Translations under genes and position numbers: made by a program
The notes under the pieces: generated by a model
Databases searched by the model: none
The model's input: only the letters and a program-made list of their open reading frames with translations
Told to the model about the DNA's origin: nothing
Shown here: positions 1,885 to 60,055 of the stretch, one piece after another
How positions within the stretch are numbered: the stretch's first letter is position 1
How the letters are laid out: the number at the start of each line of letters is the position of its first letter
Origin: Octopus sinensis
Lineage: Eukaryota
Reading direction: 5' to 3'
Length of the DNA: 64,000 nt
NCBI RefSeq assembly: GCF_006345805.1
Contig: NC_042998.1
Span: 31,558,001-31,622,000, forward strand

Positions 1885-2512
1885 TTTTAAATTTTGGTAC
1901 AAGGCCAGCAATTTCAGGAGAGGCGGTCAGTCGATTACATCGAACCCAGTGTTCAACTGGTACTTATTTTAACGACCCCGAATGGATGAAAGGTAAGGAC
2001 GATCTCAGCGGAATTTGAATTCAGAATGTAAAGACGGACGAAATACAGCTTAACAATTTGTCCCGCATGATAACGATTCTTTTTTACTCTAGGCACAAGG
2101 CCCGAAATTTGCGGGGAGGGCGCCAGTCGATTAGATCGACCTCAGTACGCAAATGGTACTTAATTTAACGACCCCGAAAGGATGAAAGGCAGAGTCGACC
2201 TCGGCGGAATTTGAACACAGAACGTATTGGCAGACGAAATACCGCTAAGCATTTCGCCGAGGCGTGGTAACGATTCTTATTTCTTTATTGCCCACAAGGG
2301 ACTAAACATAGAGGGGGCAAAGAAGGACAGACAAACGGATTAAGTCAATTATATCGACCCCAGGGCGTAACTAGATACTTAATTTATCGCCCCCGAAAGG
2401 ATGAAAGGCAAAGTCGACCTCGGCGGAATTTGAACTCAGAACGTAGCGGCAGACGAAATACCGCTAAGCATTTCGCCGAGGCGTGGTAACGATTCTGCCA
2501 GCTCGCCGCCTT
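1885..2512 (-). mobile_element. Three tandem copies of a tRNA-derived SINE (family A)
   Basis: Repeated GACCCCGAAAGGATGAAAGGCAAAGTCGACCTCGGCGGAATTTGAAC core; minus-strand head AAGGCGGCGAGCTGGCAGAATCG with A-box and GTTCAAATT B-box-like motif; the same family recurs across the window. Confidence 0.85.
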
Positions 2513-40114: not shown

Positions 40115-40248
40115 TATTTCTTTATTACCCACCAGGGGCTACGAAGAATGGCGGACATAACAAAACATGGGGGACATAGAACAATATGATTAAATTTATG
40201 AGCAAATGAAAATGAAAAAATGATAATATGAAAGCGATGCTAACGGCC
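40115..40248 (-). mobile_element. 5'-truncated 3' end of the ORF1-only element family, with a 16-bp TSD
   Basis: Reverse complement aligns to 57022-57150 (GGGGCCGTTAGCATC..GTGGGTAATAAAGAA); CCATAATTAAATATGT occurs at 40099-40114 and 40249-40264. Confidence 0.85.
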
Positions 40249-40680
40249 CCATAATTAAATATGTGTAAATGTGTTTGGAGAGTTTTATCAAAAGCTTTTC
40301 AGTAGATGCGAATTAAGCTATTGTTGAATGCGACGATTCCAAAGTAATTTTTGTTTGTTAAAAATGTATTATTTCGTGAAAACAAATTTCAATAAATTTT
40401 ATAATAATATCTGAAACCATGGTAGCAATGTTTTAAGAATATCAGTTATATTTAATGTTAAAATAAAATGTGTAACTTTGTTATGCAAATTCTTTCTATT
40501 TTAATTTGTACATATATCAATAAATTCGGAGCAAACTTTACTAGATTTAGCTTGTAAACACTACAGAAAAATTTAAATATCATTCACTTTCTTTTTCTCA
40601 TGCATAACCTGCTCTCTTCTATTTATGACTTTGATATTTTATCAAGTTCGTTTTAATGAAGTCTCAGGAATAGTGATTCC

Positions 40681-46299: not shown

Positions 46300-46712
46300 T
46301 TTTCTTTACTACCCACGAGGGGCTAAACACAGAGAGGATAAACAAGGACTGACAAACGGATTAAGTCGATTACATCGACCCCAGTGCGTAATTGGTACTT
46401 AATTTATCGAACCCGAAAGGATGAAAGGCAAAGTCGACCTCGGCGGAATTTGAACTCAGAACGTAACGGCAGACGAAATACCTATTTTTTTACTACCCAC
46501 AAGGGGCTAAACACAGAGAGGACAAGCAAGGACAGACAAACGGATTAAGTCGATTATATCGACTCCAGTGCGTAACTGGTACTTATTTAATCGACCCCGA
46601 AAGGATGAAAGGCAAAGTCGACCTCGGTGGAGTTTGAACTCAGAACGTAGCGGCAGACGAAATACCGCTAAGCATTTCGTCCGGCGTGCTAACGATTTTG
46701 CCAACTCGCCCC
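46300..46712 (-). mobile_element. Two tandem SINE family A copies with the LINE-type 3' tail; apparent TSD TAAGACTAACATCA
   Basis: Family core twice; each ends (minus strand) in TAGCCCCT(T/C)GTGGGTAGTAAA; TAAGACTAACATCA occurs at ~46286 and ~46721. Confidence 0.85.
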
Positions 46713-47392
46713 CTTTTAATTAAGACTAACATCACCACACACATCTCCGTCCCCCGTAAACTACCACTCCTTCCTCTCTTTTCATTCCCTTCCTGTCCAC
46801 CAAATACACACAGAAATACCCATGTAACTCAATCAACCTTCTCACTAGTCAAAAGGGAGAAAACAATCCTCTGTCAAACATCCTCTAATTTTATGTCGTC
46901 TGAAGAAATGAATCCAAGAAGCTGATCTAACTGATGCGCACGGATACTATGGACTTCACTGTAATCTTCCCAGGAAAACGGACTGTGATCTTAAGAGACA
47001 TGTGACTCGTGGAAACGCGCGTAGCGATGCATTAAATACTTATAAATCCCAGTGTGTGTACAGTGATCACAGGTTGTGGACAATCACATCTAGAATTTAT
47101 ACTGTAGAAGTTTAATTGAGCTGCTTAGCATACTTGATAAGAAATCGTGTCCATAGTTAATACTCTCTCCTCGTAAACTAGACACTTCATATCATTATCC
47201 GGTAGCGGCTGTGTGTGTTTTATTAATAGTCAACAAATTTTAACAGAAATATAGATTTTCTTCTCCGATATTAGATATATGCACAGAAATGGGCGGATAG
47301 CTGTTTACTACCGAAAGCCAAAAGCCCCGCAAAGAAATATCATCACAATGAAAGCGTTCTGAGTATCTGAAGTTGAAAACAAACTTAATATG

Positions 47393-48005: not shown

Positions 48006-49200
48006 GTTTCTTTATTAGCCACAAGGGCCCAAACATAGATGGGGACAAACAAGGACACCACAGAGGGGACAATACATAGAACGAATATAATGAGATGATT
48101 ATACAATAATGGGGTTCTGAATGGCTGCATGCGCCCCTCATCACACGCATTACCATTAATCTTTTTAAACTGTCCGTTTTTATCATGTACTAGCAGTATC
48201 GCCCGGCGTTGCTCGGGTTTGTAAGGGAAATAACTATAAAAGCATTTTTAGAGAGTTATAGCCAAAAAATAGCAAAAAATGCATTAAAAATGGAAAAAAA
48301 TTATGGTAATATTTTTTTAAATCGTTGACTCATCGTAGACATTTTTAGAGAGTTACTTCCCTTATATAATAGCGAAAAAATGCATTAAAATGGAAAAAAA
48401 TTATGGTAATTTTTTAAAAAAATCGTAGACTCATCGTAGACGCGCGCTAATACCCAGAAGGGCTAGATATGAATCACGACTATAAGATTCCCGGTTTTTG
48501 TTAAGCTGCACCGCAAAATGTGGGAGTAGTTAGGAATCTAAATCGTAGGAGACAGACAAACAACTTCACTTTTATATATAAAGATTTGCATAACAATTAA
48601 TTATCGTCTACCATTACCATAATTTGAACCGTTATACGTTCTCTAAAATTGTTCTTCTATTTTCCGATATTATTTAACATAACATAAACACTCTTTTTCC
48701 TTTTTTTTCCTCCTTTTTCTTTTTTCCTGTCGATTTGACATATTTATTTATTATTTTTTTAGTAATATTTCATTAGTGGTTCGATTTCTACTAAATCCTC
48801 TACTGGTGGCAATTCTTTGAATTCCGCCCTTATTCCTGATGGGTCAATATTATCTCCACGCATTTCTTGTAGTCTCTTATAACTTTCCTCCTCAATTACT
48901 ATCGCCTTCATATCCTCTGCATATATGTATGCTGGTACCTTTACTCTTACTATTTGGTTGAAATATTCATTCACAATTATATCCGACATTTATGCTATGT
49001 CTGATTTTAGCAATATCATAGGTTAGCCCATATATATGAATCTATTATCGCGCATTCATATCAGTGCGTTCACTTCAATGTGACCCCTCTTTTTGGATTC
49101 AGTTCCATTTTTTACTTTTAATATCTGATCTGGTGATTCTTTACTATCATCCTGCGGTATTTACCTAGCCAAATATTTTTTCTTCCAATTTTCGAAAACC
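48006..49200 (-). mobile_element. Third, decayed member of the ORF1-only element family, interrupted by a Helitron
   Basis: ORF 48759-48989 ends in IVIEEE..RGDNIDPSGIRAEFKELP..LMKYY, resembling the C-terminus of the 466-aa ORF; 3' UTR has a GGGG hairpin and the GTCCCC..GGCCCTTGTGGCTAATAAAGAAA tail; 5' boundary uncertain. Confidence 0.55.
48190..48584 (-). mobile_element. Non-autonomous Helitron
   Basis: Minus strand begins TC(TTTATATATAAAAG) and ends in hairpin CCCGAGCAACGCCGGG + CTAG; inserted between A and T; contains an internal ~110-bp tandem duplication. Confidence 0.85.
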
Positions 49201-52930: not shown

Positions 52931-53699
52931 TCATATTCAAGCATACTCACACACCCTCATCCTAACAGACGCTTATTTATGGGGCTGAATCAATTTAGTG
53001 CAAATGAAAAGCTGTTAGGAAGGCGGCGAAGAACTAAAGCAGATTTGCTAGTAATTGCGTTATCATTACTATTTATTATTATTACATGGTCACTCCGAAT
53101 AATCTGGAACAAATATGTCAAGTGTTTGCTTTTAGTATCATATCTATAATGATTACATTCTGCAAAGCAATTCTCAATGGAACACTCAGTAAACTACCGC
53201 GCAGAATTTTCTTTTGTTATGCGGTTTAATCATCGCTTGTTACTTCGCCTCCATTGTGTTTCCGTATAAATATTTGAGGTGAGGTTCGCTTTAGTATCTT
53301 CTATATTTTAACTTCAGCACACGAGCAAAAGATAGCTAACTAAAAGGCTATATAGATCGCTGTATCCATTTCGCTTACTCTGCATCATAATAAAACTCAT
53401 GAATGTATGAACGTCATGCGTCTTAGTTTGCCTCTTTCTAATATGTAGCATATTGCTGCAAAATTATAAACGGGGGCTCAACACTTACTTTCACTGACCT
53501 ATATCTGCTGAACCACGAAACCACAGTTGTCCATAATAGAAACACATATGGAACAGGATTCCACTTCGCTTGACTCCACCTGTAAATATATAGTTGTGTG
53601 TCAACACAAGATCTAATGAATAGAATATGTGAGAGAAACGGTTGTGTATAAGCGTTGTGATTTTGCTGGATTCAAACCTGTTAGTTGGAGCGTTGTATC

Positions 53700-55447
53700 A
53701 CTCTACATAGCAGGAATTTTTGTTGTGTAAATTGATAATTATCGCGCGAGGCGTTTGCCTCCACGTGTGGAAACCTTCCGAAGAAGGTGAATTGACCCTC
53801 TAGTCATGGCGACTTACGCGGGGGTCACGGGAAAGAAAAATAATGATTACTCGATAATCGTGAAGGATGTTTTCTTTGAGAAGAGTAAACTCAAAGAATA
53901 TGAAAAGCTATTCAAAAGGGAGGGTGATAGCGTGAAGCTAATCCCCCCCGCGAAAGCAAAAGAGGACAAAGAAAACAAGACTGTAACATATAGAACCCAA
54001 GACAAAAATACAAAGAAACTGGCAAGAGTGGAGATAGCAGAAATCGAAAAATGTCTGGGAGACATAATGCAGAAATCGACCTACGTGAGTAGAGGCAAGA
54101 AATTTGGTACGGTGGAGGTGAGATGTGCAACGGAAGAAGTTGCAGCCTCACTGGCTACCACTGTACTAAGAGCGGAAACATTTACAATGTGGCCCTCATA
54201 CAAGGGAAGAAGAGGGGTCCGGGTTAAAATCCCGAATATACCCCCGGAAGTGAAAACAGAATGGCTGGCAACAGCTATTCTAGGAGCAGCAGAAGAGGAA
54301 GTGGAGGTGGAATCCTTTAAGGAGTCCAACGCGATTAACTGGAGAGGATATGGGGTAGAACTGTGTTTGATGGCCACAAAAGAGGACATTGAAAGGTTCC
54401 CCTACAGAATAGAAATAGAAGACGAGAAAACCCTCAGTGTAATTGTAGAGGGAAGAAAGCCAAACTGCTACTTGTGCGGGACAAGGGGGCACATTAAAAA
54501 AGAGTGCCCGTTATACGAATTCATAACGGAGTACGAGCAGGAGCTTGAAGAAAGGAGGAGTACGGTAAATGAAAAAGAAAACATAGAAAAGGAGACAAAA
54601 CAACAAGAGAAAGGAAATAATAAGTCAACGAAGGAAAAAGAAATAAAAGAAAAGAAAGAAATAGAACCAAAACAGAGTCAGGAAAAGAAAAAGGAAAAAG
54701 AAACAACAGGAAAAAAACAAGAGAGAGATCAGAACCAAACGAAAAGAAAAGACGGCACACAAAAAGAAAAAGAAAAGGAACATAAAACACGAGAGAAAGA
54801 GAGAACAGACAAAGAACCAAAAAGACAAGAGAAGGAAGAAGAAAGAAAAGAAGGCAAAAAGAGAGAAAGAGAGAAACAAAGAGAGGAGAACAAGGAAGAA
54901 ATAAGCCCGAAAAGAAAAACGAGGGAAAACGTAGGACGGAAACAAGATTACTACAAGTTAATAACCTTCCATTTCTGCCCTGAAATGAAGGAATTGACAT
55001 GTAGTACGGAGGGACATGTGTGGGTCAACAGGATGACTGATCAGTGGCAGGAGACTGCTCTGATCCCCGAAGAAAGAGTCGCTGAGTTCCTCAGAGCTGC
55101 CGGAGAGAGTGTAATTTTTTACACGGGTGTTCGAATGAAAGAGCGGCTGCCTGAGGGCTCAGTGATTGACTTTAGAGACTTGAAAGGTATTATGGAATAC
55201 GTATAAAATTGTGAGAAGAGAGAGAAGAAAGAAGAGAAAAAAGAAAACATTGTGAAATATATGTGACGAAAATGTAACCTCTCGATTCCGGGGATCGAGT
55301 GGGCATTTACATCTCATTGTAAATATTCTTTCATATGTCATTTTTTATTTTTATTTTTTCCTTTTCTTGTCATTTCGCTTTCTTATTTTAAGTTCCCCGA
55401 TTGTATTGTCCCCTCTATGTTCGCCCCTTGTGGGTAGTAATAAAATC
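53700..55447 (+). mobile_element. ORF1-only (HAL1-like) non-LTR element, copy 1
   Basis: Structured 5' leader, single ORF1-like CDS, 3' UTR hairpin (55272-55312) and LINE-type tail GTCCCCTCTATGTTCGCCCCTTGTGGGTAGTAATAAAA; no ORF2 between the ORF and the tail; 5' boundary uncertain. Confidence 0.7.
53806..55206 (+). CDS. L1/Tx1-type ORF1-like protein (RRM-like region, CCHC zinc knuckle, K/E-rich linker, C-terminal domain), 466 aa
   Basis: Intact ORF; KFGTVEVRC and VRVKIPNIPP RRM-like segments; VEGRKPNCYLCGTRGHIKKEC = C-x2-C-x4-H-x4-C. Confidence 0.8.
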   Translation: MATYAGVTGKKNNDYSIIVKDVFFEKSKLKEYEKLFKREGDSVKLIPPAKAKEDKENKTVTYRTQDKNTKKLARVEIAEIEKCLGDIMQKSTYVSRGKKFGTVEVRCATEEVAASLATTVLRAETFTMWPSYKGRRGVRVKIPNIPPEVKTEWLATAILGAAEEEVEVESFKESNAINWRGYGVELCLMATKEDIERFPYRIEIEDEKTLSVIVEGRKPNCYLCGTRGHIKKECPLYEFITEYEQELEERRSTVNEKENIEKETKQQEKGNNKSTKEKEIKEKKEIEPKQSQEKKKEKETTGKKQERDQNQTKRKDGTQKEKEKEHKTREKERTDKEPKRQEKEEERKEGKKREREKQREENKEEISPKRKTRENVGRKQDYYKLITFHFCPEMKELTCSTEGHVWVNRMTDQWQETALIPEERVAEFLRAAGESVIFYTGVRMKERLPEGSVIDFRDLKGIMEYV

Positions 55448-55685
55448 ACATGTATGTATAAATTACTTTTTTTTTTTGTTTTTATCTTATTTCGATGACG
55501 GGTGTCGAAAACGTAAGACAGATTTTTGGTCGGTTATATAGGTAAATCTGCGACCCACGAGGAAGTGGCGTCGTGAGTTAAATTTTGTTACTGCGTTACA
55601 CGTTAATTTTGTTAAACGTTTTTGTTGTACGGACGCGCGGGGTTTTTCTGTCTGTGTTCAGACAGACAAGGACGGCCCCTCCCTG

Positions 55686-56744
55686 ATGGGAGAGACGGCA
55701 AGAGTTTTTGAGTCTCTATCAGACTTGTCTACGTCTGAGGAGGAACTAGAAGAAGCAGTGAGGAAAATGGACCAGAAACTGGGTTATACCTATGCCGGAA
55801 TGACTAAGAAGGCGGAGGAGCTGCCAAGTTTCCAGAAGTATATTAAGAAGGACAGCGGTGAGGTGGAACTGGCACCGCCACCAAAGAGAAAAGAATGGTA
55901 CGAGAAAAGGACCATCATATCCAGGGTATACGCAAGCGGAAAGAAAAAGATAGAAGTGGTCAATATGGAGTGGATAGAGGAGGCGCTAAGAAGAACGGAA
56001 GAGGAAATTAATTTTCTGACGAGAGGTTCAAAATATGGTACTGTAGTAGTGCAGTTCAAAAGAGAGAATGCAGCAAGGAAGATGGCGGTGAAATCCGAGA
56101 AGGTAATACTTTTGCCTACATATTTAAATAGAAAAATTACAAGAGTAAGAGTCGAGGGAATACCCCCAAACGTCGAAGCCGAGTGGATTGTGGCGGCTAT
56201 AATCAGCGGCCACGAGGATGAAGTGGACATCCTCCATGCCTCGGTTAAGACCGAGGGCTGGAGAGGCGTGACAGTGGAACTAAATGTGCAGGCAGAGGAT
56301 GATGTACTGGTGGACCTTGCAGAGAACATCAGATTGGGAGACGTAATCATGAGAGTGTGGGTGGAGGGCAGAGCTCCACGTTGTTACAAGTGTGGCCTGC
56401 GGGGTCACATAAGAGCCTACTGCCCTCCCCCAGTGAAAGAAATGGATGCCGAACCACAAAGAGAGGCAGAAAAAGAACAGAAACCAGAGGAGAAGGAGAC
56501 AGTAGAAGAGGAAGAGAATTCACAAGAATGGAAAGAAGCTGGGAAGAAGAGGAAGGGGAGAACAAGAGGAAAAGGAAACAACATGGAACACCAATCCACC
56601 CAAACACCACCCACACCCTCTGAGTCCCACCGTATCCCTGCAGACAGTGAACCCACCCGCTCCCCTCCAACAAGAAAACAAAAAAAAATAATACAGACAG
56701 ACAAGAGACTGAATTCGAACCCAGGCCGAACATTTGTACTATGA
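55686..56744 (+). CDS. L1/Tx1-type ORF1-like CCHC protein, 352 aa (N-terminal part; probably continues by -1 shift into 56741-57010)
   Basis: Collinear with the 466-aa ORF: TYAGMTKK, VELAPPPKRKE, RGSKYGTVVVQF, VRVEGIPPNVEAEW, WRGVTVEL, VEGRAPRCYKCGLRGHIRAYC. Confidence 0.75.
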   Translation: MGETARVFESLSDLSTSEEELEEAVRKMDQKLGYTYAGMTKKAEELPSFQKYIKKDSGEVELAPPPKRKEWYEKRTIISRVYASGKKKIEVVNMEWIEEALRRTEEEINFLTRGSKYGTVVVQFKRENAARKMAVKSEKVILLPTYLNRKITRVRVEGIPPNVEAEWIVAAIISGHEDEVDILHASVKTEGWRGVTVELNVQAEDDVLVDLAENIRLGDVIMRVWVEGRAPRCYKCGLRGHIRAYCPPPVKEMDAEPQREAEKEQKPEEKETVEEEENSQEWKEAGKKRKGRTRGKGNNMEHQSTQTPPTPSESHRIPADSEPTRSPPTRKQKKIIQTDKRLNSNPGRTFVL

Positions 56745-57010
56745 CAGAACAGAAAGAAGTTAAAAGGGTAATGGAAGAGTATAAATGGTATGAAATAGGT
56801 GAGACCAGGTATGCAGTGATTGAAAAGGAGAGAATAGATGAGTTTATGACAAGGTGTGAAAGGAAGAATTGGGAGGTGAAAGAGACAAGAACGAGTGATG
56901 AATCCGTGGAAAATATGGAGGAGTATTTTGAAGTAAGAATAGAGAAGAATGGTTTTATTATTGGGAATGAACATCTGAGTGAAAGTGAAAACCAAAGGAC
57001 AGGTAAGTGA
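56741..57010 (+). CDS. C-terminal domain of the copy-2 ORF1-like protein (89-aa ORF in the -1 frame)
   Basis: YAVIEKERIDEFM resembles TALIPEERVAEFL of copy 1; this frame is open back through the A9 run at 56680-56688; ATGA overlap with the upstream stop. Confidence 0.6.
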   Translation: MTEQKEVKRVMEEYKWYEIGETRYAVIEKERIDEFMTRCERKNWEVKETRTSDESVENMEEYFEVRIEKNGFIIGNEHLSESENQRTGK

Positions 57011-57159
57011 TGCTAACGGTTGGGGCCGTTAGCATCACTTTCATATCATTTTTTCATGTAAAAATTCATTCTTCATAAATTTAATTATGTTCTATGTCTC
57101 CAATGTTTTGTAATGTCCCCTCTGCGTCGCCCCTCGTGGGTAATAAAGAATCAAGTGGC

Positions 57160-57478
57160 GCCATTACTTTATCGCTTCACTGTGACGGCGTACTCGGATG
57201 AGATCACCATCATAGTATCGAAGGCGAGTCACCTACAGTGGGTAGGTGAAGCCGTTAAAGAATACGAGGCGGTGGCAGCAGCATTAGTTAACCGTGAAAA
57301 GTCGGTCGCTTTGCAGCTTGGCACCTGGGGAGGCAAGTCGATGCCGTCCAACAGCGTCGTGGGACGTTGGACAGAGGTCCGGTGAAAGGGGTCTGGTTTG
57401 GGCCAGACCTCCAGTTAGAGAAAAATTGGAGCGAGGTCACGAACAGAGTGGCCTATCTAATCCAGACCTGGTCTGGGC
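57160..57478 (+). pseudogene. Tx1/L1-like reverse transcriptase fragment
   Basis: VTAYSDEITIIV (degenerate YADD), EYEAVAAALVNREKSVAL, then a frameshift to GVWFGPDLQLEKNWSEVTNRV; typical RT domains 5-7 of the L1/Tx1 group. Confidence 0.75.
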
Positions 57479-57562: not shown

Positions 57563-57742
57563 GAAAAATAGCAGTGTTAGCGGTCGTATTTGGTGTGAAA
57601 AGCGCAGAACTCGTTTCGAATAGTACGCAAATAATCCCAAAATACGTGAGAGAGACTTTGGTTTTTGGTATTATTTGCGTACTATTCGAAATGGGTTCCG
57701 CGCTTTTCACACCGAATATGATCGCTAACACTGCTATTTTTC
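57563..57742. repeat. Long inverted repeat (~80-bp arms, ~20-bp spacer), foldback/MITE-like
   Basis: GAAAAATAGCAGTGTTAGCG..TTTCGAATAGTACGCAAATAAT is mirrored by ATTATTTGCGTACTATTCGAAA..CGCTAACACTGCTATTTTTC. Confidence 0.9.
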
Positions 57743-58179
57743 TGTAGACGATGTAAAAAAAAAATGTTAATTACCCGGTGTTCTACTCGCCTAAAATAAT
57801 ACTCTTTAAAATGCATAATTTATACATACATCTGGCGCAGGCCAATACACTTGACAGTGTCCACTTGATATAAATTATCATATTCACCTGCTATGTAGAG
57901 TGATACAACACTCCACATAACGAGTTCAAATCCAGCAAAATCACAACAAGTATGGCTCTAGCGATTCTGTCATCGGTTTAAATTCCTAACTGAAGGTGTT
58001 TCATTCTTCAGATGGAAAATTCTCTCTGAAATCATAGAAAATCTTGAAGGTCACATTAATAGAAAACATTTTCATGAAAATAATTCCTTTCATTGCTTTG
58101 GTTATAACACTAACGATGGCTATTCTTTACTTCTTAATCCAACATTTCAATCTATCGAAATAATCAATTAATGCTCAAC

Positions 58180-58387
58180 AAGGCGGCAAGCTGGCAGAAA
58201 CGTTAACACGCCGGGCGAAATGCTTAGCCGTATTTCGTCTGCCGTTACGTTCTGAGTTAAAATTCCGCTGACGTCGACTTTGCCTTTCATCCTTTCGGGG
58301 TCGATAAATTAAGTACAAGTTACGCACTGGGGTCGATGTAATAGACTTAATTCTTTTGTCTGTCCTTGTTTGTCCCCTCTATGTTCC
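58180..58387 (+). mobile_element. SINE family A with a partial LINE-type tail
   Basis: AAGGCGGCAAGCTGGCAGAAACG head, family core, GTCCTTGTTTGTCCCCTCTATGTT tail. Confidence 0.85.
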
Positions 58388-60055
58388 ACTGTTCATGTTG
58401 CTTTGAAGTTTTTGCATGATGCACGTCTTCGGCTGGTCTCATAACTCGATAGTTTATGCACTTAGTCGGCTGTGCTTCCATGATATACAGTGCAACATCT
58501 ATATTTAAGAATGGATGACAGTGAATCAATATTGTAGTCGATTAGGACAATTTAAATATATTAAGGAAAATTAAAGGATTTAAGAATATAACACTAGATT
58601 AAGTGTTATAAGATCAGTAAGGAATAGGTGTATATAATTTCCATCACAAGGAAATTTAAACTTTCCGAAAGATACGGACGTTTTATATTAATTTGAATCA
58701 CAAAATTTGCGAAATTGGGGGCCAATCACTGAATTTGACATCATTTGAAAGGCATATATCCAGAATCACAAGATTAAAACACAATGAACCTATTATTTTT
58801 ACCAACTGAAAGAAGCTAAGTGAACAAGAGATATAGCTTATCTAGTCATTATGAGAAGTCCGTTCATCGCCTGCACATAACTACGGCTGGAGTTCAAGAG
58901 TGTAAATATCAGGGGCAATGTATAAATGGCACTTGCACCTTCAGCTGCAATCATTTTGTTACATTTTTCCTTATTCTTGCTTAATCATGCATTTGTATTC
59001 TCATGTAGACGGAAATATGTCTCCATACAACCGAGATAATTTCAAGTTATACAAAATCTATTCAGTGGATAAAAGAAAAACAGTGCAAATTAAATAAACG
59101 ACATTCGTTCTAGAAGCGCATTATATACACATTTCAGACTGTTTGGTAGAATTCCGACTGCACTCTCTGCCATTGTTGACATCACATGGATTTCTGGGAA
59201 ACATCAATACCATGCGCATAATGACTGCTCATGATATTAATATCGATAATCGTATTACTTTAAAAGAATTATAGAATGAGACATCCTAAAACTATATTGT
59301 AATGTGAATAATGTTTCCTCAGTAAATTTTGTCAGATTTTCTATTGCTGTGTTATCAACGTTTCTCCGTTTTCAGGCCAAATTCACAGATCAGTTGTCAT
59401 CTGACAATGAACTTAATGCCAGTCGTCTAATATTTTTACTGACCATGTCGTATGAATGTATTGCATCGGTAATGCATTAGACATGGACACGATATATCTG
59501 TCAAACAGTAATTAGATAAAATGCCACTTGCTAAAAGAAATATAGTTTTCACCAAGTTAGTCCAACCGTTAATTACAGAAAATTATTTTGTTCTATTTTG
59601 CCTCGTGAAGGTGCAGAATTGTAATTTAGAATAAGTTAATTTCATTTGTCTTCAGCTTGGTATTCTATTTCACATTTTACACGATGCTGTCTGGTAATGT
59701 ACAAGACAAGTGTCGCGGATATTCTGTATTAATAAATGTAGTTCATTGCTTAAAGAAAAAAAAAACAGTCGCTTTTTTTTATTCTTCGATTTAACTATTT
59801 TCACGTTTCTATATGAGTTCAAATTCCGCCGCAGCATATTATGCTTTGAATCTTTTCATTTTTTAGATCGTTACAAGCAAACTAATAAATATATCTGACT
59901 CTAAACCAGTTTAACCAATCCCAATTGTCGACTAATGCTTAATATTATCGATCTTTGATCGATAAACATCAAAGCTGCCCTCGGCGGGATTCAAACTGAA
60001 GCATAAATTTTAGCCGAAACAAATCATTCAAGGTAGTTTGTACAATGATCTAAGT

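What the first reader, a model, noticed from the sequence alone, without database searches (positions are those of the whole stretch)
53700..57152. Tandem ORF1-only retroelements: a candidate cephalopod 'half-LINE' system sharing its 3' tail with a SINE
Seen: two head-to-tail ~1.6-1.75-kb units, each with a structured leader, one ORF (TYAG motif, RRM-like region, CCHC knuckle, charged linker, conserved C-terminal domain), a GGGG hairpin and a GTCCCCTCT..GCCCCT(T/C)GTGGGTA.TAA tail, with no ORF2 in between. The proteins are collinear but strongly diverged while the frames stay open (one frameshift in copy 2), which suggests purifying selection in a window where nearly all other TEs are decayed. 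The same tail ends a SINE subfamily and a TSD-flanked truncated insertion. Established: HAL1 elements are ORF1-only non-autonomous L1/Tx1 derivatives; I am not aware of a description in cephalopods. Inference: a three-party system of an autonomous LINE, ORF1-encoding parasites or helpers, and a SINE, all using one 3' recognition signal; domestication as a tandem gene pair is the alternative.
Basis: partly seen in the sequence, partly recalled or inferred. Interest (0 to 1): 0.85.

Follow-up and report, generated by a model that had tools for sequence, protein, structure and literature searches.

The report
Octopus half-LINEs that inherit target sites
The two units belong to large octopus families of jumping elements that encode only an RNA-binding protein, share their tail with full-length LINEs (their likely helpers) and a SINE, pile up head-to-tail at a few recurrent sites, and carry bits of an earlier landing site at their 5' ends, which likely steers where the next copy lands.

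Summary
Both units are real ORF1-only retroelements, from two different dispersed families (at least 96 and 115 matches). They are not a gene pair. ORF1 (two RRM folds plus a CCHC knuckle) evolves under purifying selection (dN/dS mostly 0.1-0.25). None of 103 ORFs is followed by an endonuclease; four EN-RT LINE families and a SINE share the tail.

There are 88 exact junctions at one position of a Helitron-like repeat, and others in the SINE head and a Mariner-like repeat. Their 5' ends carry earlier target sequence. One copy made from A-to-G hyper-edited RNA has its upstream 'target duplication' edited too, so that flank was on the RNA. Seven of 192 copies carry such ADAR-type scars.

ORF1-only LINE derivatives and transposon-targeting Tx1 with tandems are known (HAL1, HeT-A, crocodilian Tx1-Mar/SINEU). 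Target choice steered by inherited RNA ends is inferred, about even odds against endonuclease specificity. The 'structured leader' and 'conserved C-terminal domain' were not confirmed.

The parts
53711..55450 (+). U1: ORF1-only non-LTR element, family U1; about 40 nt shorter at the 5' end than full-length relatives; 95-98% identical to its nearest copies
53806..55206 (+). U1 ORF1, 466 aa: RRM fold (aa 48-135), second RRM fold (136-216), CCHC knuckle (220-235), helix, disordered charged linker, small alpha/beta C-terminal domain
55270..55312 (+). 3' UTR hairpin with GGGG, z -2.3
55399..55451 (+). U1 tail with AATAAA; 96% identical over 53 nt to the tail of autonomous LINE-A, 88% over 41 nt to the SINE tail
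55448..55452 (+). ACATG at the U1/U2 junction: the first five bases of the site at which this family usually ends
55453..57153 (+). U2: ORF1-only element of the second lineage, older (nearest copies about 84-89% at DNA level); 5' limit approximate
55686..56744 (+). U2 ORF1, first frame, 352 aa; leaves the family's frame in the A-run near 56680-56688
56741..57010 (+). U2 ORF1 C-terminal part, second frame, 89 aa
57002..57042 (+). 3' UTR hairpin with GGGG loop, z -7.8
57108..57153 (+). U2 tail with AATAAA; 90% over 31 nt to LINE-B, 83% over 48 nt to LINE-A and U1
57182..57478 (+). decayed fragment of the RT region of a related LINE (86% to its closest copies), behind the U2 tail
46302..46722 (-). 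SINE dimer ending in the shared tail, flanked by a 14-nt duplication
40118..40250 (-). 5'-truncated copy of the U2 lineage (U4 type), 16-nt TSD that begins with ACAT, as its lineage's usual site does

Best explanation
U1 and U2 are ORF1-only non-LTR elements of two dispersed families that end in the same tail as four EN-RT LINE families and a SINE, are likely copied in trans by those LINEs' ORF2 protein, and carry earlier target sequence at their 5' ends, which, with a likely short read-through at the 3' end, likely steers each new copy to a matching site. Steps. (1) Shown: RNA intermediate (TSDs of 12-22 nt, 5' truncation, A-to-G edited copies). (2) Inferred: ORF1p is kept because it packages the element's own RNA; ORF2p is borrowed through the shared tail. 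(3) Shown: the RNA begins in the upstream flank, so part of the old target travels with the head. (4) Inferred: cleavage some bases behind the AATAAA in the tail leaves a few bases of downstream flank on the RNA; these pair with the nicked strand to prime reverse transcription, and the cDNA end pairs with the other overhang. Sites that resemble the donor's site are therefore completed best. (5) Consequence, seen: a lineage that sits in a high-copy repeat keeps returning to the same position in other copies, and each TSD is a fresh target, so mixed arrays grow. Unequal exchange likely adds near-identical units. The window pair is such a two-member mixed array: a young U1 copy landed in front of an older U2 copy.
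For: Dispersed families with open frames. No endonuclease motif within 1.5 kb of 103 of 103 U-class ORFs, tail 113-861 nt behind the stop in 93 of them; the same test found the motif behind 15 of 22 LINE ORF1s. dN/dS 0.10-0.25 in 20 of 22 computable U-class pairs, 0.29 and 0.48 in two edited copies. ORF2s have APE endonuclease, RT and zf-RVT. Mixed arrays share one junction word across families. 88 exact tail junctions at one position of the Helitron-like repeat, beside 336 intact empty sites and 535 tails of that class; 13 of 155 U2 tails join the SINE head; 4 join the Mariner-like site. 21 filled hosts are interspersed with 30 empty ones, 93.7% alike among themselves. Flank on the RNA: the edited copy C10182:44480 has four A-to-G changes in its 5' host-derived 11-mer while its 3' copy and 30 empty sites do not show this; a variant junction word is at 7 of 21 filled left junctions, in three families, with 0 exact empty sites; whole foreign target words sit outside the TSD at C9:1.88M and C2:110.2M, and unlinked copies share head variants that their own targets lack. 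Bodies with dS 0.013 sit at different target classes. New sites begin like the lineage's usual site: summed prefix 69 against 22.3, 0 of 20,000 shuffles. No clear motif upstream of the nick in 20 TSD-proven sites.
Against: At non-recurrent sites the lineage match is weak under the stricter test (47.2 against 24.8, p 0.019, confined to the first two bases), and positions 3-5 are A-rich in all lineages, which an endonuclease preference could give. No copied 3' extension was proven as directly as the 5' one. Kojima 2015 (PMC4494074) attributes Tx1 target choice mainly to the endonuclease and explains two dissimilar sites by different helper families; only four or five LINE families were examined here. 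Only 4 exact junctions were found at 2,077 Mariner-like sites. Some arrays are nearly homogeneous (0-8 substitutions per 1.6 kb) or recur whole at two loci, so recombination, segmental duplication or assembly error contribute. Trans-mobilisation and the role of ORF1p were not tested.
Confidence: 0.6

Rival explanations
1. Same elements, but target choice comes from the endonucleases of several helper LINEs, each with its own site, as held for Tx1L and Tx1-Mar. Carried flanks are by-products (5' transduction) that at most sharpen the junction. Arrays arise by double insertion into TSDs.
For: PMC4494074 (passages and parts 2-4 of 5): Tx1 families target transposons and microsatellites, target choice mainly by the endonuclease, SINEU tandems sandwich a TSD, 5' extensions come from the Mariner target. 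LINE-A and U1 share tail and site. LINE-C ends in TC repeats in 5 of 5 copies read, like Kibi. A-rich positions 3-5. Double insertion explains tandems in flies (10.1101/158386, passages).
Against: One ORF1-only lineage uses at least four unlike sites and switches among near-identical bodies. Insertion points walk over about 40 nt of the host. No upstream motif. No LINE family was seen that prefers the SINE-head or Mariner-like site, though the search was small.
Confidence: 0.3
2. The recurrent sites and arrays are mostly DNA-level products: a few founder insertions were spread by the host repeat's own transposition, unequal exchange, segmental duplication or mis-assembly.
For: Homogeneous arrays, identical truncated units repeated, arrays that recur whole at C7:96.72/96.84M and C3:72.27M/C24:4.67M, many homopolymer frameshifts.
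Against: Filled hosts are interspersed with empty ones and are less alike (93.7%) than the LINE-A copies in them (97-99%). Arrays differ in family make-up. Single hyper-edited units sit in arrays of unedited ones, so they arrived by separate RNA-mediated events. Three unrelated hosts are used.
Confidence: 0.07
3. The window pair is a domesticated tandem gene pair, like L1TD1.
For: Open frames and low dN/dS; database gene models in Octopus vulgaris.
Against: Hundreds of dispersed copies with TSDs and truncations; the two units belong to different lineages; U2 is frameshifted and U1 is 5'-truncated; low dN/dS is expected of active source lineages.
Confidence: 0.02

Closest known systems
HAL1, HeT-A and Ag-Sponge: ORF1-encoding non-autonomous LINEs (PMC5786205 and PMC5753468, passages)
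   Same: Only ORF1 is encoded; mobility depends on an autonomous partner; several independent origins.
   Different: Derived from a Tx1-like group in an octopus; the U1 tail matches LINE-A while its ORF1 does not group with LINE-A (AU p 0.0015), so it is not a simple internal deletion; interstitial, target-recurrent arrays rather than dispersed (HAL1) or telomeric (HeT-A) copies.
Crocodilian Tx1-Mar with SINEU (Kojima 2015, PMC4494074, passages and parts 2-4 of 5)
   Same: Tx1-type LINEs and a SINE prefer fixed positions in a high-copy DNA transposon; 16-nt TSD; tandems sandwich a TSD; some copies carry a 5' extension from the target.
   Different: No ORF1-only partners reported in the parts read; SINEU has a poly(A) tail and no shared LINE tail; targeting is ascribed to endonucleases; here one lineage switches among several unlike targets and long mixed arrays form.
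R2 and R1 rDNA elements with co-transcribed target sequence (PMC13580325 and PMC4494074, passages)
   Same: Target sequence on the RNA 5' end becomes a cDNA end that anneals to the upstream target; co-transcription strengthens specific integration; R1 forms TSD-separated tandems.
   Different: There a sequence-specific endonuclease fixes one site; here the flank is renewed at each landing and differs between sister lineages.
Kibi and Koshi (Tx1 families in TC and TTC repeats; PMC4494074, passage)
   Same: LINE-C of this group ends in TC repeats (5 of 5 read).
   Different: LINE-C carries the same tail motif as the LINEs that use other targets; relationship by RT tree not tested.

Membership tests
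ORF1-encoding non-autonomous LINE (HAL1-like kind) | encodes ORF1 only, no ORF2 | tested here: met
   0 of 103 U-class ORFs have an endonuclease motif within 1.5 kb; tail follows in 93
ORF1-encoding non-autonomous LINE (HAL1-like kind) | multiplied as a family by retrotransposition (dispersed, TSDs, 5' truncation) | tested here: met
   RNA-edited copies
ORF1-encoding non-autonomous LINE (HAL1-like kind) | ORF1 homologous to that of autonomous LINEs and under purifying selection | tested here: met
   two RRM folds and CCHC
ORF1-encoding non-autonomous LINE (HAL1-like kind) | 3' end shared with an autonomous partner | tested here: met
   53 nt at 96% with LINE-A; 31 nt at 90% with LINE-B
ORF1-encoding non-autonomous LINE (HAL1-like kind) | mobilised in trans by the partner's ORF2p | not testable with these tools
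   inferred from shared tail, shared sites and mixed arrays
HAL1 in the strict sense | internal-deletion derivative of the L1 element whose ends it shares | tested here: not met
   U1 ORF1 with LINE-A ORF1 as one clade is rejected, AU p 0.0015, although the tails match; Bao and Jurka 2010 was not held, the definition is taken from citing papers
Tx1 clade (partner LINEs) | two ORFs; APE endonuclease, RT and zf-RVT in ORF2 | tested here: met
Tx1 clade (partner LINEs) | RT phylogeny places it with Tx1 rather than L1 | tested here: inconclusive
   no named reference set; one hit named 'Transposon TX1 uncharacterized 149 kDa protein' at 38%; the label Tx1 is otherwise from recall
Tx1-Mar/SINEU-type system | over 20% of copies flanked by one repeat type (the paper's criterion) | tested here: met
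   9 of the first 30 U1/LINE-A tails end in the Helitron-like host and 13 more in array neighbours; genome-wide exact count 88 against 535 (patterns not strictly nested)
Tx1-Mar/SINEU-type system | target set by the endonuclease | not testable with these tools
   needs a cleavage or retargeting assay
HeT-A | Jockey-clade gag, arrays at chromosome ends | tested here: not met
   arrays lie inside contigs between the two halves of a host repeat; ORF1 groups with the EN-RT LINEs found here
Domesticated ORF1 gene (L1TD1 kind) | single-copy, syntenic, not mobile | tested here: not met
   synteny itself could not be tested
ADAR hyper-editing fixed in DNA | dense A-to-G on the sense strand only | tested here: met
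   105-148 A>G against 0-3 T>C in 4 of 103 full-length copies; 7 of 192 in the wider screen, none of T>C type
ADAR hyper-editing fixed in DNA | G depleted 5' of the edited A | tested here: met
   1.8% of As after G changed, 31.5% after A (U1 copies); motif as in PMC5625713 (passages). The 3' neighbour here favours G, whereas that paper reports A for invertebrates
Helitron (host repeat) | 5' TC, 3' hairpin and CTAG, no TSD | tested here: inconclusive
   hairpin and CTAG seen in 29 of 30 empty copies; label from recall, no library of repeats on hand

The most novel reading that the evidence does not exclude
An octopus LINE group whose target site is written in its RNA ends and rewritten at each landing: a low-specificity endonuclease nicks, inherited flanks choose, so target preference is a heritable, switchable trait shared by LINEs, ORF1-only satellites and a SINE. 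This would explain why Tx1 families keep acquiring new multicopy targets, and would be a natural retargetable insertion system. Germline ADAR hyper-editing leaves dated marks on the copies.
Probability: 0.4. Interest if true: 0.9.

Novelty: new variant of a known kind. Interest (0 to 1): 0.74.

Why it matters
Tx1-type elements have acquired many unrelated targets (snRNA genes, microsatellites, other transposons), usually ascribed to endonuclease change. Here young, intact LINEs and 1.75-kb satellites with different flanks exist side by side, so swapping 15-20 terminal bases tests directly whether RNA ends choose the site. A positive result bears on RNA-templated gene insertion without a guide nuclease. 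The ORF1-only families give a young system in which to ask why ORF1p is kept in cis. The hyper-edited copies show that in an octopus, an animal known for heavy RNA editing, edited transposon RNA reaches the germline genome; they serve as a label for which bases were RNA.

Tried and rejected
Expression: no RNA holder listed; no read-level result was obtained, so transcript ends remain unseen. The C-terminal domain folded alone gave pLDDT 42 and was not searched; its fold is untested. Profile comparison found no link between the C-terminal domains of U1, U2 and the LINEs. Leader structure is not above shuffles. Protein searches found relatives of the ORF1 only in Octopus vulgaris; these searches need shared exact words, so this does not show absence elsewhere; ORF2 relatives include Argonauta at 63%. 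A script count of the U2 frameshift matched only 5 copies and was replaced by a count of ORF ends. Hitchhiking on the host repeat was tested and rejected as the main cause. The scan's earlier notes held nothing. Ten literature searches listed no paper on octopus Tx1 or ORF1-only elements, on inherited target flanks in Tx1, or on ADAR-edited LINE copies fixed in a genome; Petrosino 2022 (PMC9115989) has 0 occurrences of Tx1, HAL1 or tandem. Repbase and Dfam could not be searched, Bao and Jurka 2010 was not held, subscription papers are missing, and I opened no supplements (those of PMC4494074 may show junction detail).
Full report
Observation. The window holds two same-strand units, U1 (53711-55450) and U2 (about 55453-57153), each with one ORF, a hairpin and a tail, and no ORF2. 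U1 encodes 466 aa; U2 encodes 352 aa and, after a shift in an A-run, 89 aa more. The proteins are 34% identical over 235 aa. The tail pattern occurs twice and never in 100 shuffles; looser versions find the SINE dimer at 46.3-46.7 kb and the truncated insertion at 40.1 kb, both TSD-flanked. Hairpins fold well (z -2.3, -7.8); leaders do not stand out (z -1.0, -0.9, -2.2). The C-terminal domains of the two units are not detectably related. The U2 frameshift is not special: 13 of 55 U2-class ORFs end the same way, 25 are complete, so the A-run is a slip or assembly hot spot.

Families. P0001 gives 96 matches and P0002 115 in the own genome G000, both lower bounds, on more than 20 multi-megabase contigs, many with open frames. 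Database relatives are gene models of Octopus vulgaris at up to 95-99%. Among 125 knuckle-bearing ORFs in the DNA held, 103 belong to U-class families (U1, U1b; U2, U2b, U3, U4). None has an endonuclease motif within 1.5 kb and 93 have the tail 113-861 nt behind the stop; the other 10 lie at locus edges or have variant tails. The same test found the motif behind 15 of 22 LINE ORF1s. dN/dS over the N-terminal 218 codons is 0.10-0.25 in 20 of 22 computable U-class pairs; the C-terminal 85 codons are less constrained, 0.27-1.04. The model (mean pLDDT 65) shows two RRM folds, the knuckle and a disordered linker (best Z 9.2 over 80 residues, rmsd 2.6).

Partners. The RT fragment behind U2 led to at least four two-ORF LINE families, A-D, with APE endonuclease, RT and zf-RVT. 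All end in a version of the tail. U1 shares 53 nt at 96% with LINE-A, U2 31 nt at 90% with LINE-B, the SINE 41 nt at 83-88% with LINE-A and U1. In ORF1 trees U1 and U2 are separate deep clades; holding them together is weakly rejected (p 0.033) and U1 with LINE-A is rejected (p 0.0015). So ORF1-only elements probably arose twice and U1 took its tail from another LINE. That these LINEs are Tx1 rests on domain order, one named hit and recall.

Arrays and targets. Copies stand head to tail in arrays of up to 11 held units that mix U1, U1b, U2-class and LINE-A or -B, often with one junction word throughout. Of 188 catalogued ORF1-only copies, 125 are followed by another element, 10 by the host half described next (one of these is a low-complexity mis-call), 8 by a SINE head, 2 by a Mariner-like repeat and 43 by other DNA; I fetched arrays on purpose, so this is biased. 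In position-ordered samples, 9 of 30 U1/LINE-A tails end in the host, 13 in another element, 8 elsewhere; for U2 tails 3 in the SINE, 13 in another element, 14 elsewhere. The array ends are the two halves of a 1.2-kb repeat with a 3' hairpin and CTAG, which I call Helitron-like from recall; it holds a decayed ORF1 fragment. The intact site occurs 336 times and the tail joins it exactly 88 times, against 535 tails of that class. 13 of 155 U2 tails join the SINE head and 4 join the Mariner-like site, of which 2,077 are empty. LINE-C ends in TC repeats. Filled hosts are interspersed with empty ones and 93.7% alike, less than the LINE-A copies in them, so they were filled one by one. TSDs at new sites are 12-22 nt and start 2-3 nt behind the constant core in 20 of 22 cases.

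The flank travels on the RNA. Four lines. First, hyper-edited copies: 3 of 62 U1 and 1 of 41 U2 full-length copies carry 105-148 A-to-G changes on the sense strand and 0-3 T-to-C; As after G are spared (1.8% against 31.5% after A). A wider screen gives 7 of 192. G depletion upstream is the ADAR mark (PMC5625713, passages); the 3' preference here is G, while that paper gives A for invertebrates. In the edited copy C10182:44480 the host-derived stretch at the 5' junction has four A-to-G changes; its own 3' duplicate has none, nor do 30 empty sites show this pattern. That stretch was therefore RNA. Second, a variant of the host word is at 7 of 21 filled left junctions, in U1, U2 and LINE-A, with no exact empty site. 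Third, at C16:52.6M and C5:8.1M the 5' 'duplicate' differs from the 3' one by variants shared with unlinked copies. Fourth, at C9:1.88M and C2:110.2M a whole Mariner-type or SINE-type target word sits inside a true, site-specific TSD.

Does the flank steer? U2 clades keep to one target class, and classes recur in separate clades; bodies with dS 0.013 sit at different classes. For 34 copies at non-recurrent sites (three junctions dropped by hand because they join other elements, the window's U2 added) the site begins like that of the nearest relative in a recurrent site: summed prefix 69 against 22.3, no shuffle of 20,000 as high; 46 against 13.1 for the 20 TSD-proven ones. The stricter version (35 copies, all loci as references, three junction bases left out) gives 47.2 against 24.8, p 0.019, with the excess in the first two bases only; positions 3-5 are A-rich everywhere and no motif lies upstream. 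This fits short pairing at the primer but does not exclude endonuclease preference. In the window, U1 joins at ACATG and the 40.1-kb copy's TSD begins ACAT, both as their lineages' usual site does. Edited units are first in arrays of 11, 5 and 7 held units, so arrays gain units by separate RNA-mediated events. Other arrays differ by 0-8 substitutions per unit or recur whole, which points to unequal exchange, duplication or assembly error as well.

Mechanism. Shown: ORF1-only structure, RNA intermediate, shared tails, recurrent sites, 5' flank carry-over. Inferred: trans use of ORF2p, cis role of ORF1p, a short 3' read-through behind AATAAA, and pairing of both ends as the selector of sites. 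I give this 0.6, endonuclease-only targeting 0.3, DNA-level spread 0.07, domestication 0.02.

Comparison. ORF1-encoding non-autonomous LINEs are known: HeT-A, HAL1, Ag-Sponge (PMC5786205, PMC5753468; passages). The closest system is crocodilian Tx1-Mar with SINEU: fixed sites in a Mariner element, TSD-sandwiched tandems, a 5' extension from the target, and the remark that co-transcription can strengthen targeting (PMC4494074; passages and parts 2-4 of 5). Annealing of co-transcribed target at the R2 5' junction (PMC13580325, passages) and tandems by double insertion (10.1101/158386, passages) are established. The kind is therefore known. New, within ten searches (Repbase and Dfam not searchable): ORF1-only Tx1-type families in a cephalopod, target switching within one lineage with direct proof of flank carry-over, and ADAR-type edited copies fixed in the genome.

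Verdict. Real, larger than the window shows; a new variant of a known kind; interest 0.74. If RNA ends prove to choose the site, 0.9.

Noticed in passing
G000 C6:95025951, C10072:32536, C11:75874200, C10182:44480, C9:480247, C24:25472806 and 25474457 (L029, L023, L019, L074, L078, L049): Seven of 192 copies carry 30-148 sense-strand A-to-G changes with G spared upstream: likely ADAR hyper-editing of the RNA fixed by reverse transcription. A-to-G makes no stop from a sense codon, so these frames stay open and look like diverged intact genes.
   Followed up: partly
L113-L142, around position 1501: A 1.2-kb non-coding repeat with hairpin and CTAG end (Helitron-like by recall) carries a decayed 350-nt fragment of a related ORF1; the insertion hot spot lies inside that fragment.
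   Followed up: partly
L098-L102 (C5:65.24M, C14:64.82M, C3:75.18M, C6:112.87M): LINE-C ends in TC repeats in 5 of 5 copies read and forms 5.5-kb tandems, as Kibi is reported to target TC repeats.
   Followed up: partly
window 46302-46722 (-), 2281-2512 (-); L037, L179: The SINE joins other SINE copies at two fixed positions (near 24 and near 57 of the unit) in 10 of 23 catalogued copies.
   Followed up: partly
window 53654-53714 and 57887-57947; 57563-57742: A 61-nt stretch at U1's 5' junction recurs inverted 4.2 kb downstream (89%), and 57563-57742 is a self-inverted repeat; U1 has no TSD here, so the locus may be rearranged.
   Followed up: no
window 48008-48140 (-): A further tail variant with a doubled GTCCCC motif that matched none of my reference families.
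   Followed up: no
window 58170-58390 (+): SINE copy whose tail breaks off after the GTCCCCTCT motif.
   Followed up: no
window 15385 downwards (-): An open frame of 433 codons beginning with what looks like a membrane receptor N-terminus (by eye).
   Followed up: no
G000 C7:96.72M and 96.84M; C3:72.27M and C24:4.67M: Whole arrays recur with the same order and junction words: segmental duplication, transport by the host repeat, or assembly duplicates.
   Followed up: no
L094-L095 (C6:112.83M): Three LINE-B copies truncated at the same base stand in tandem with the same TSD.
   Followed up: no
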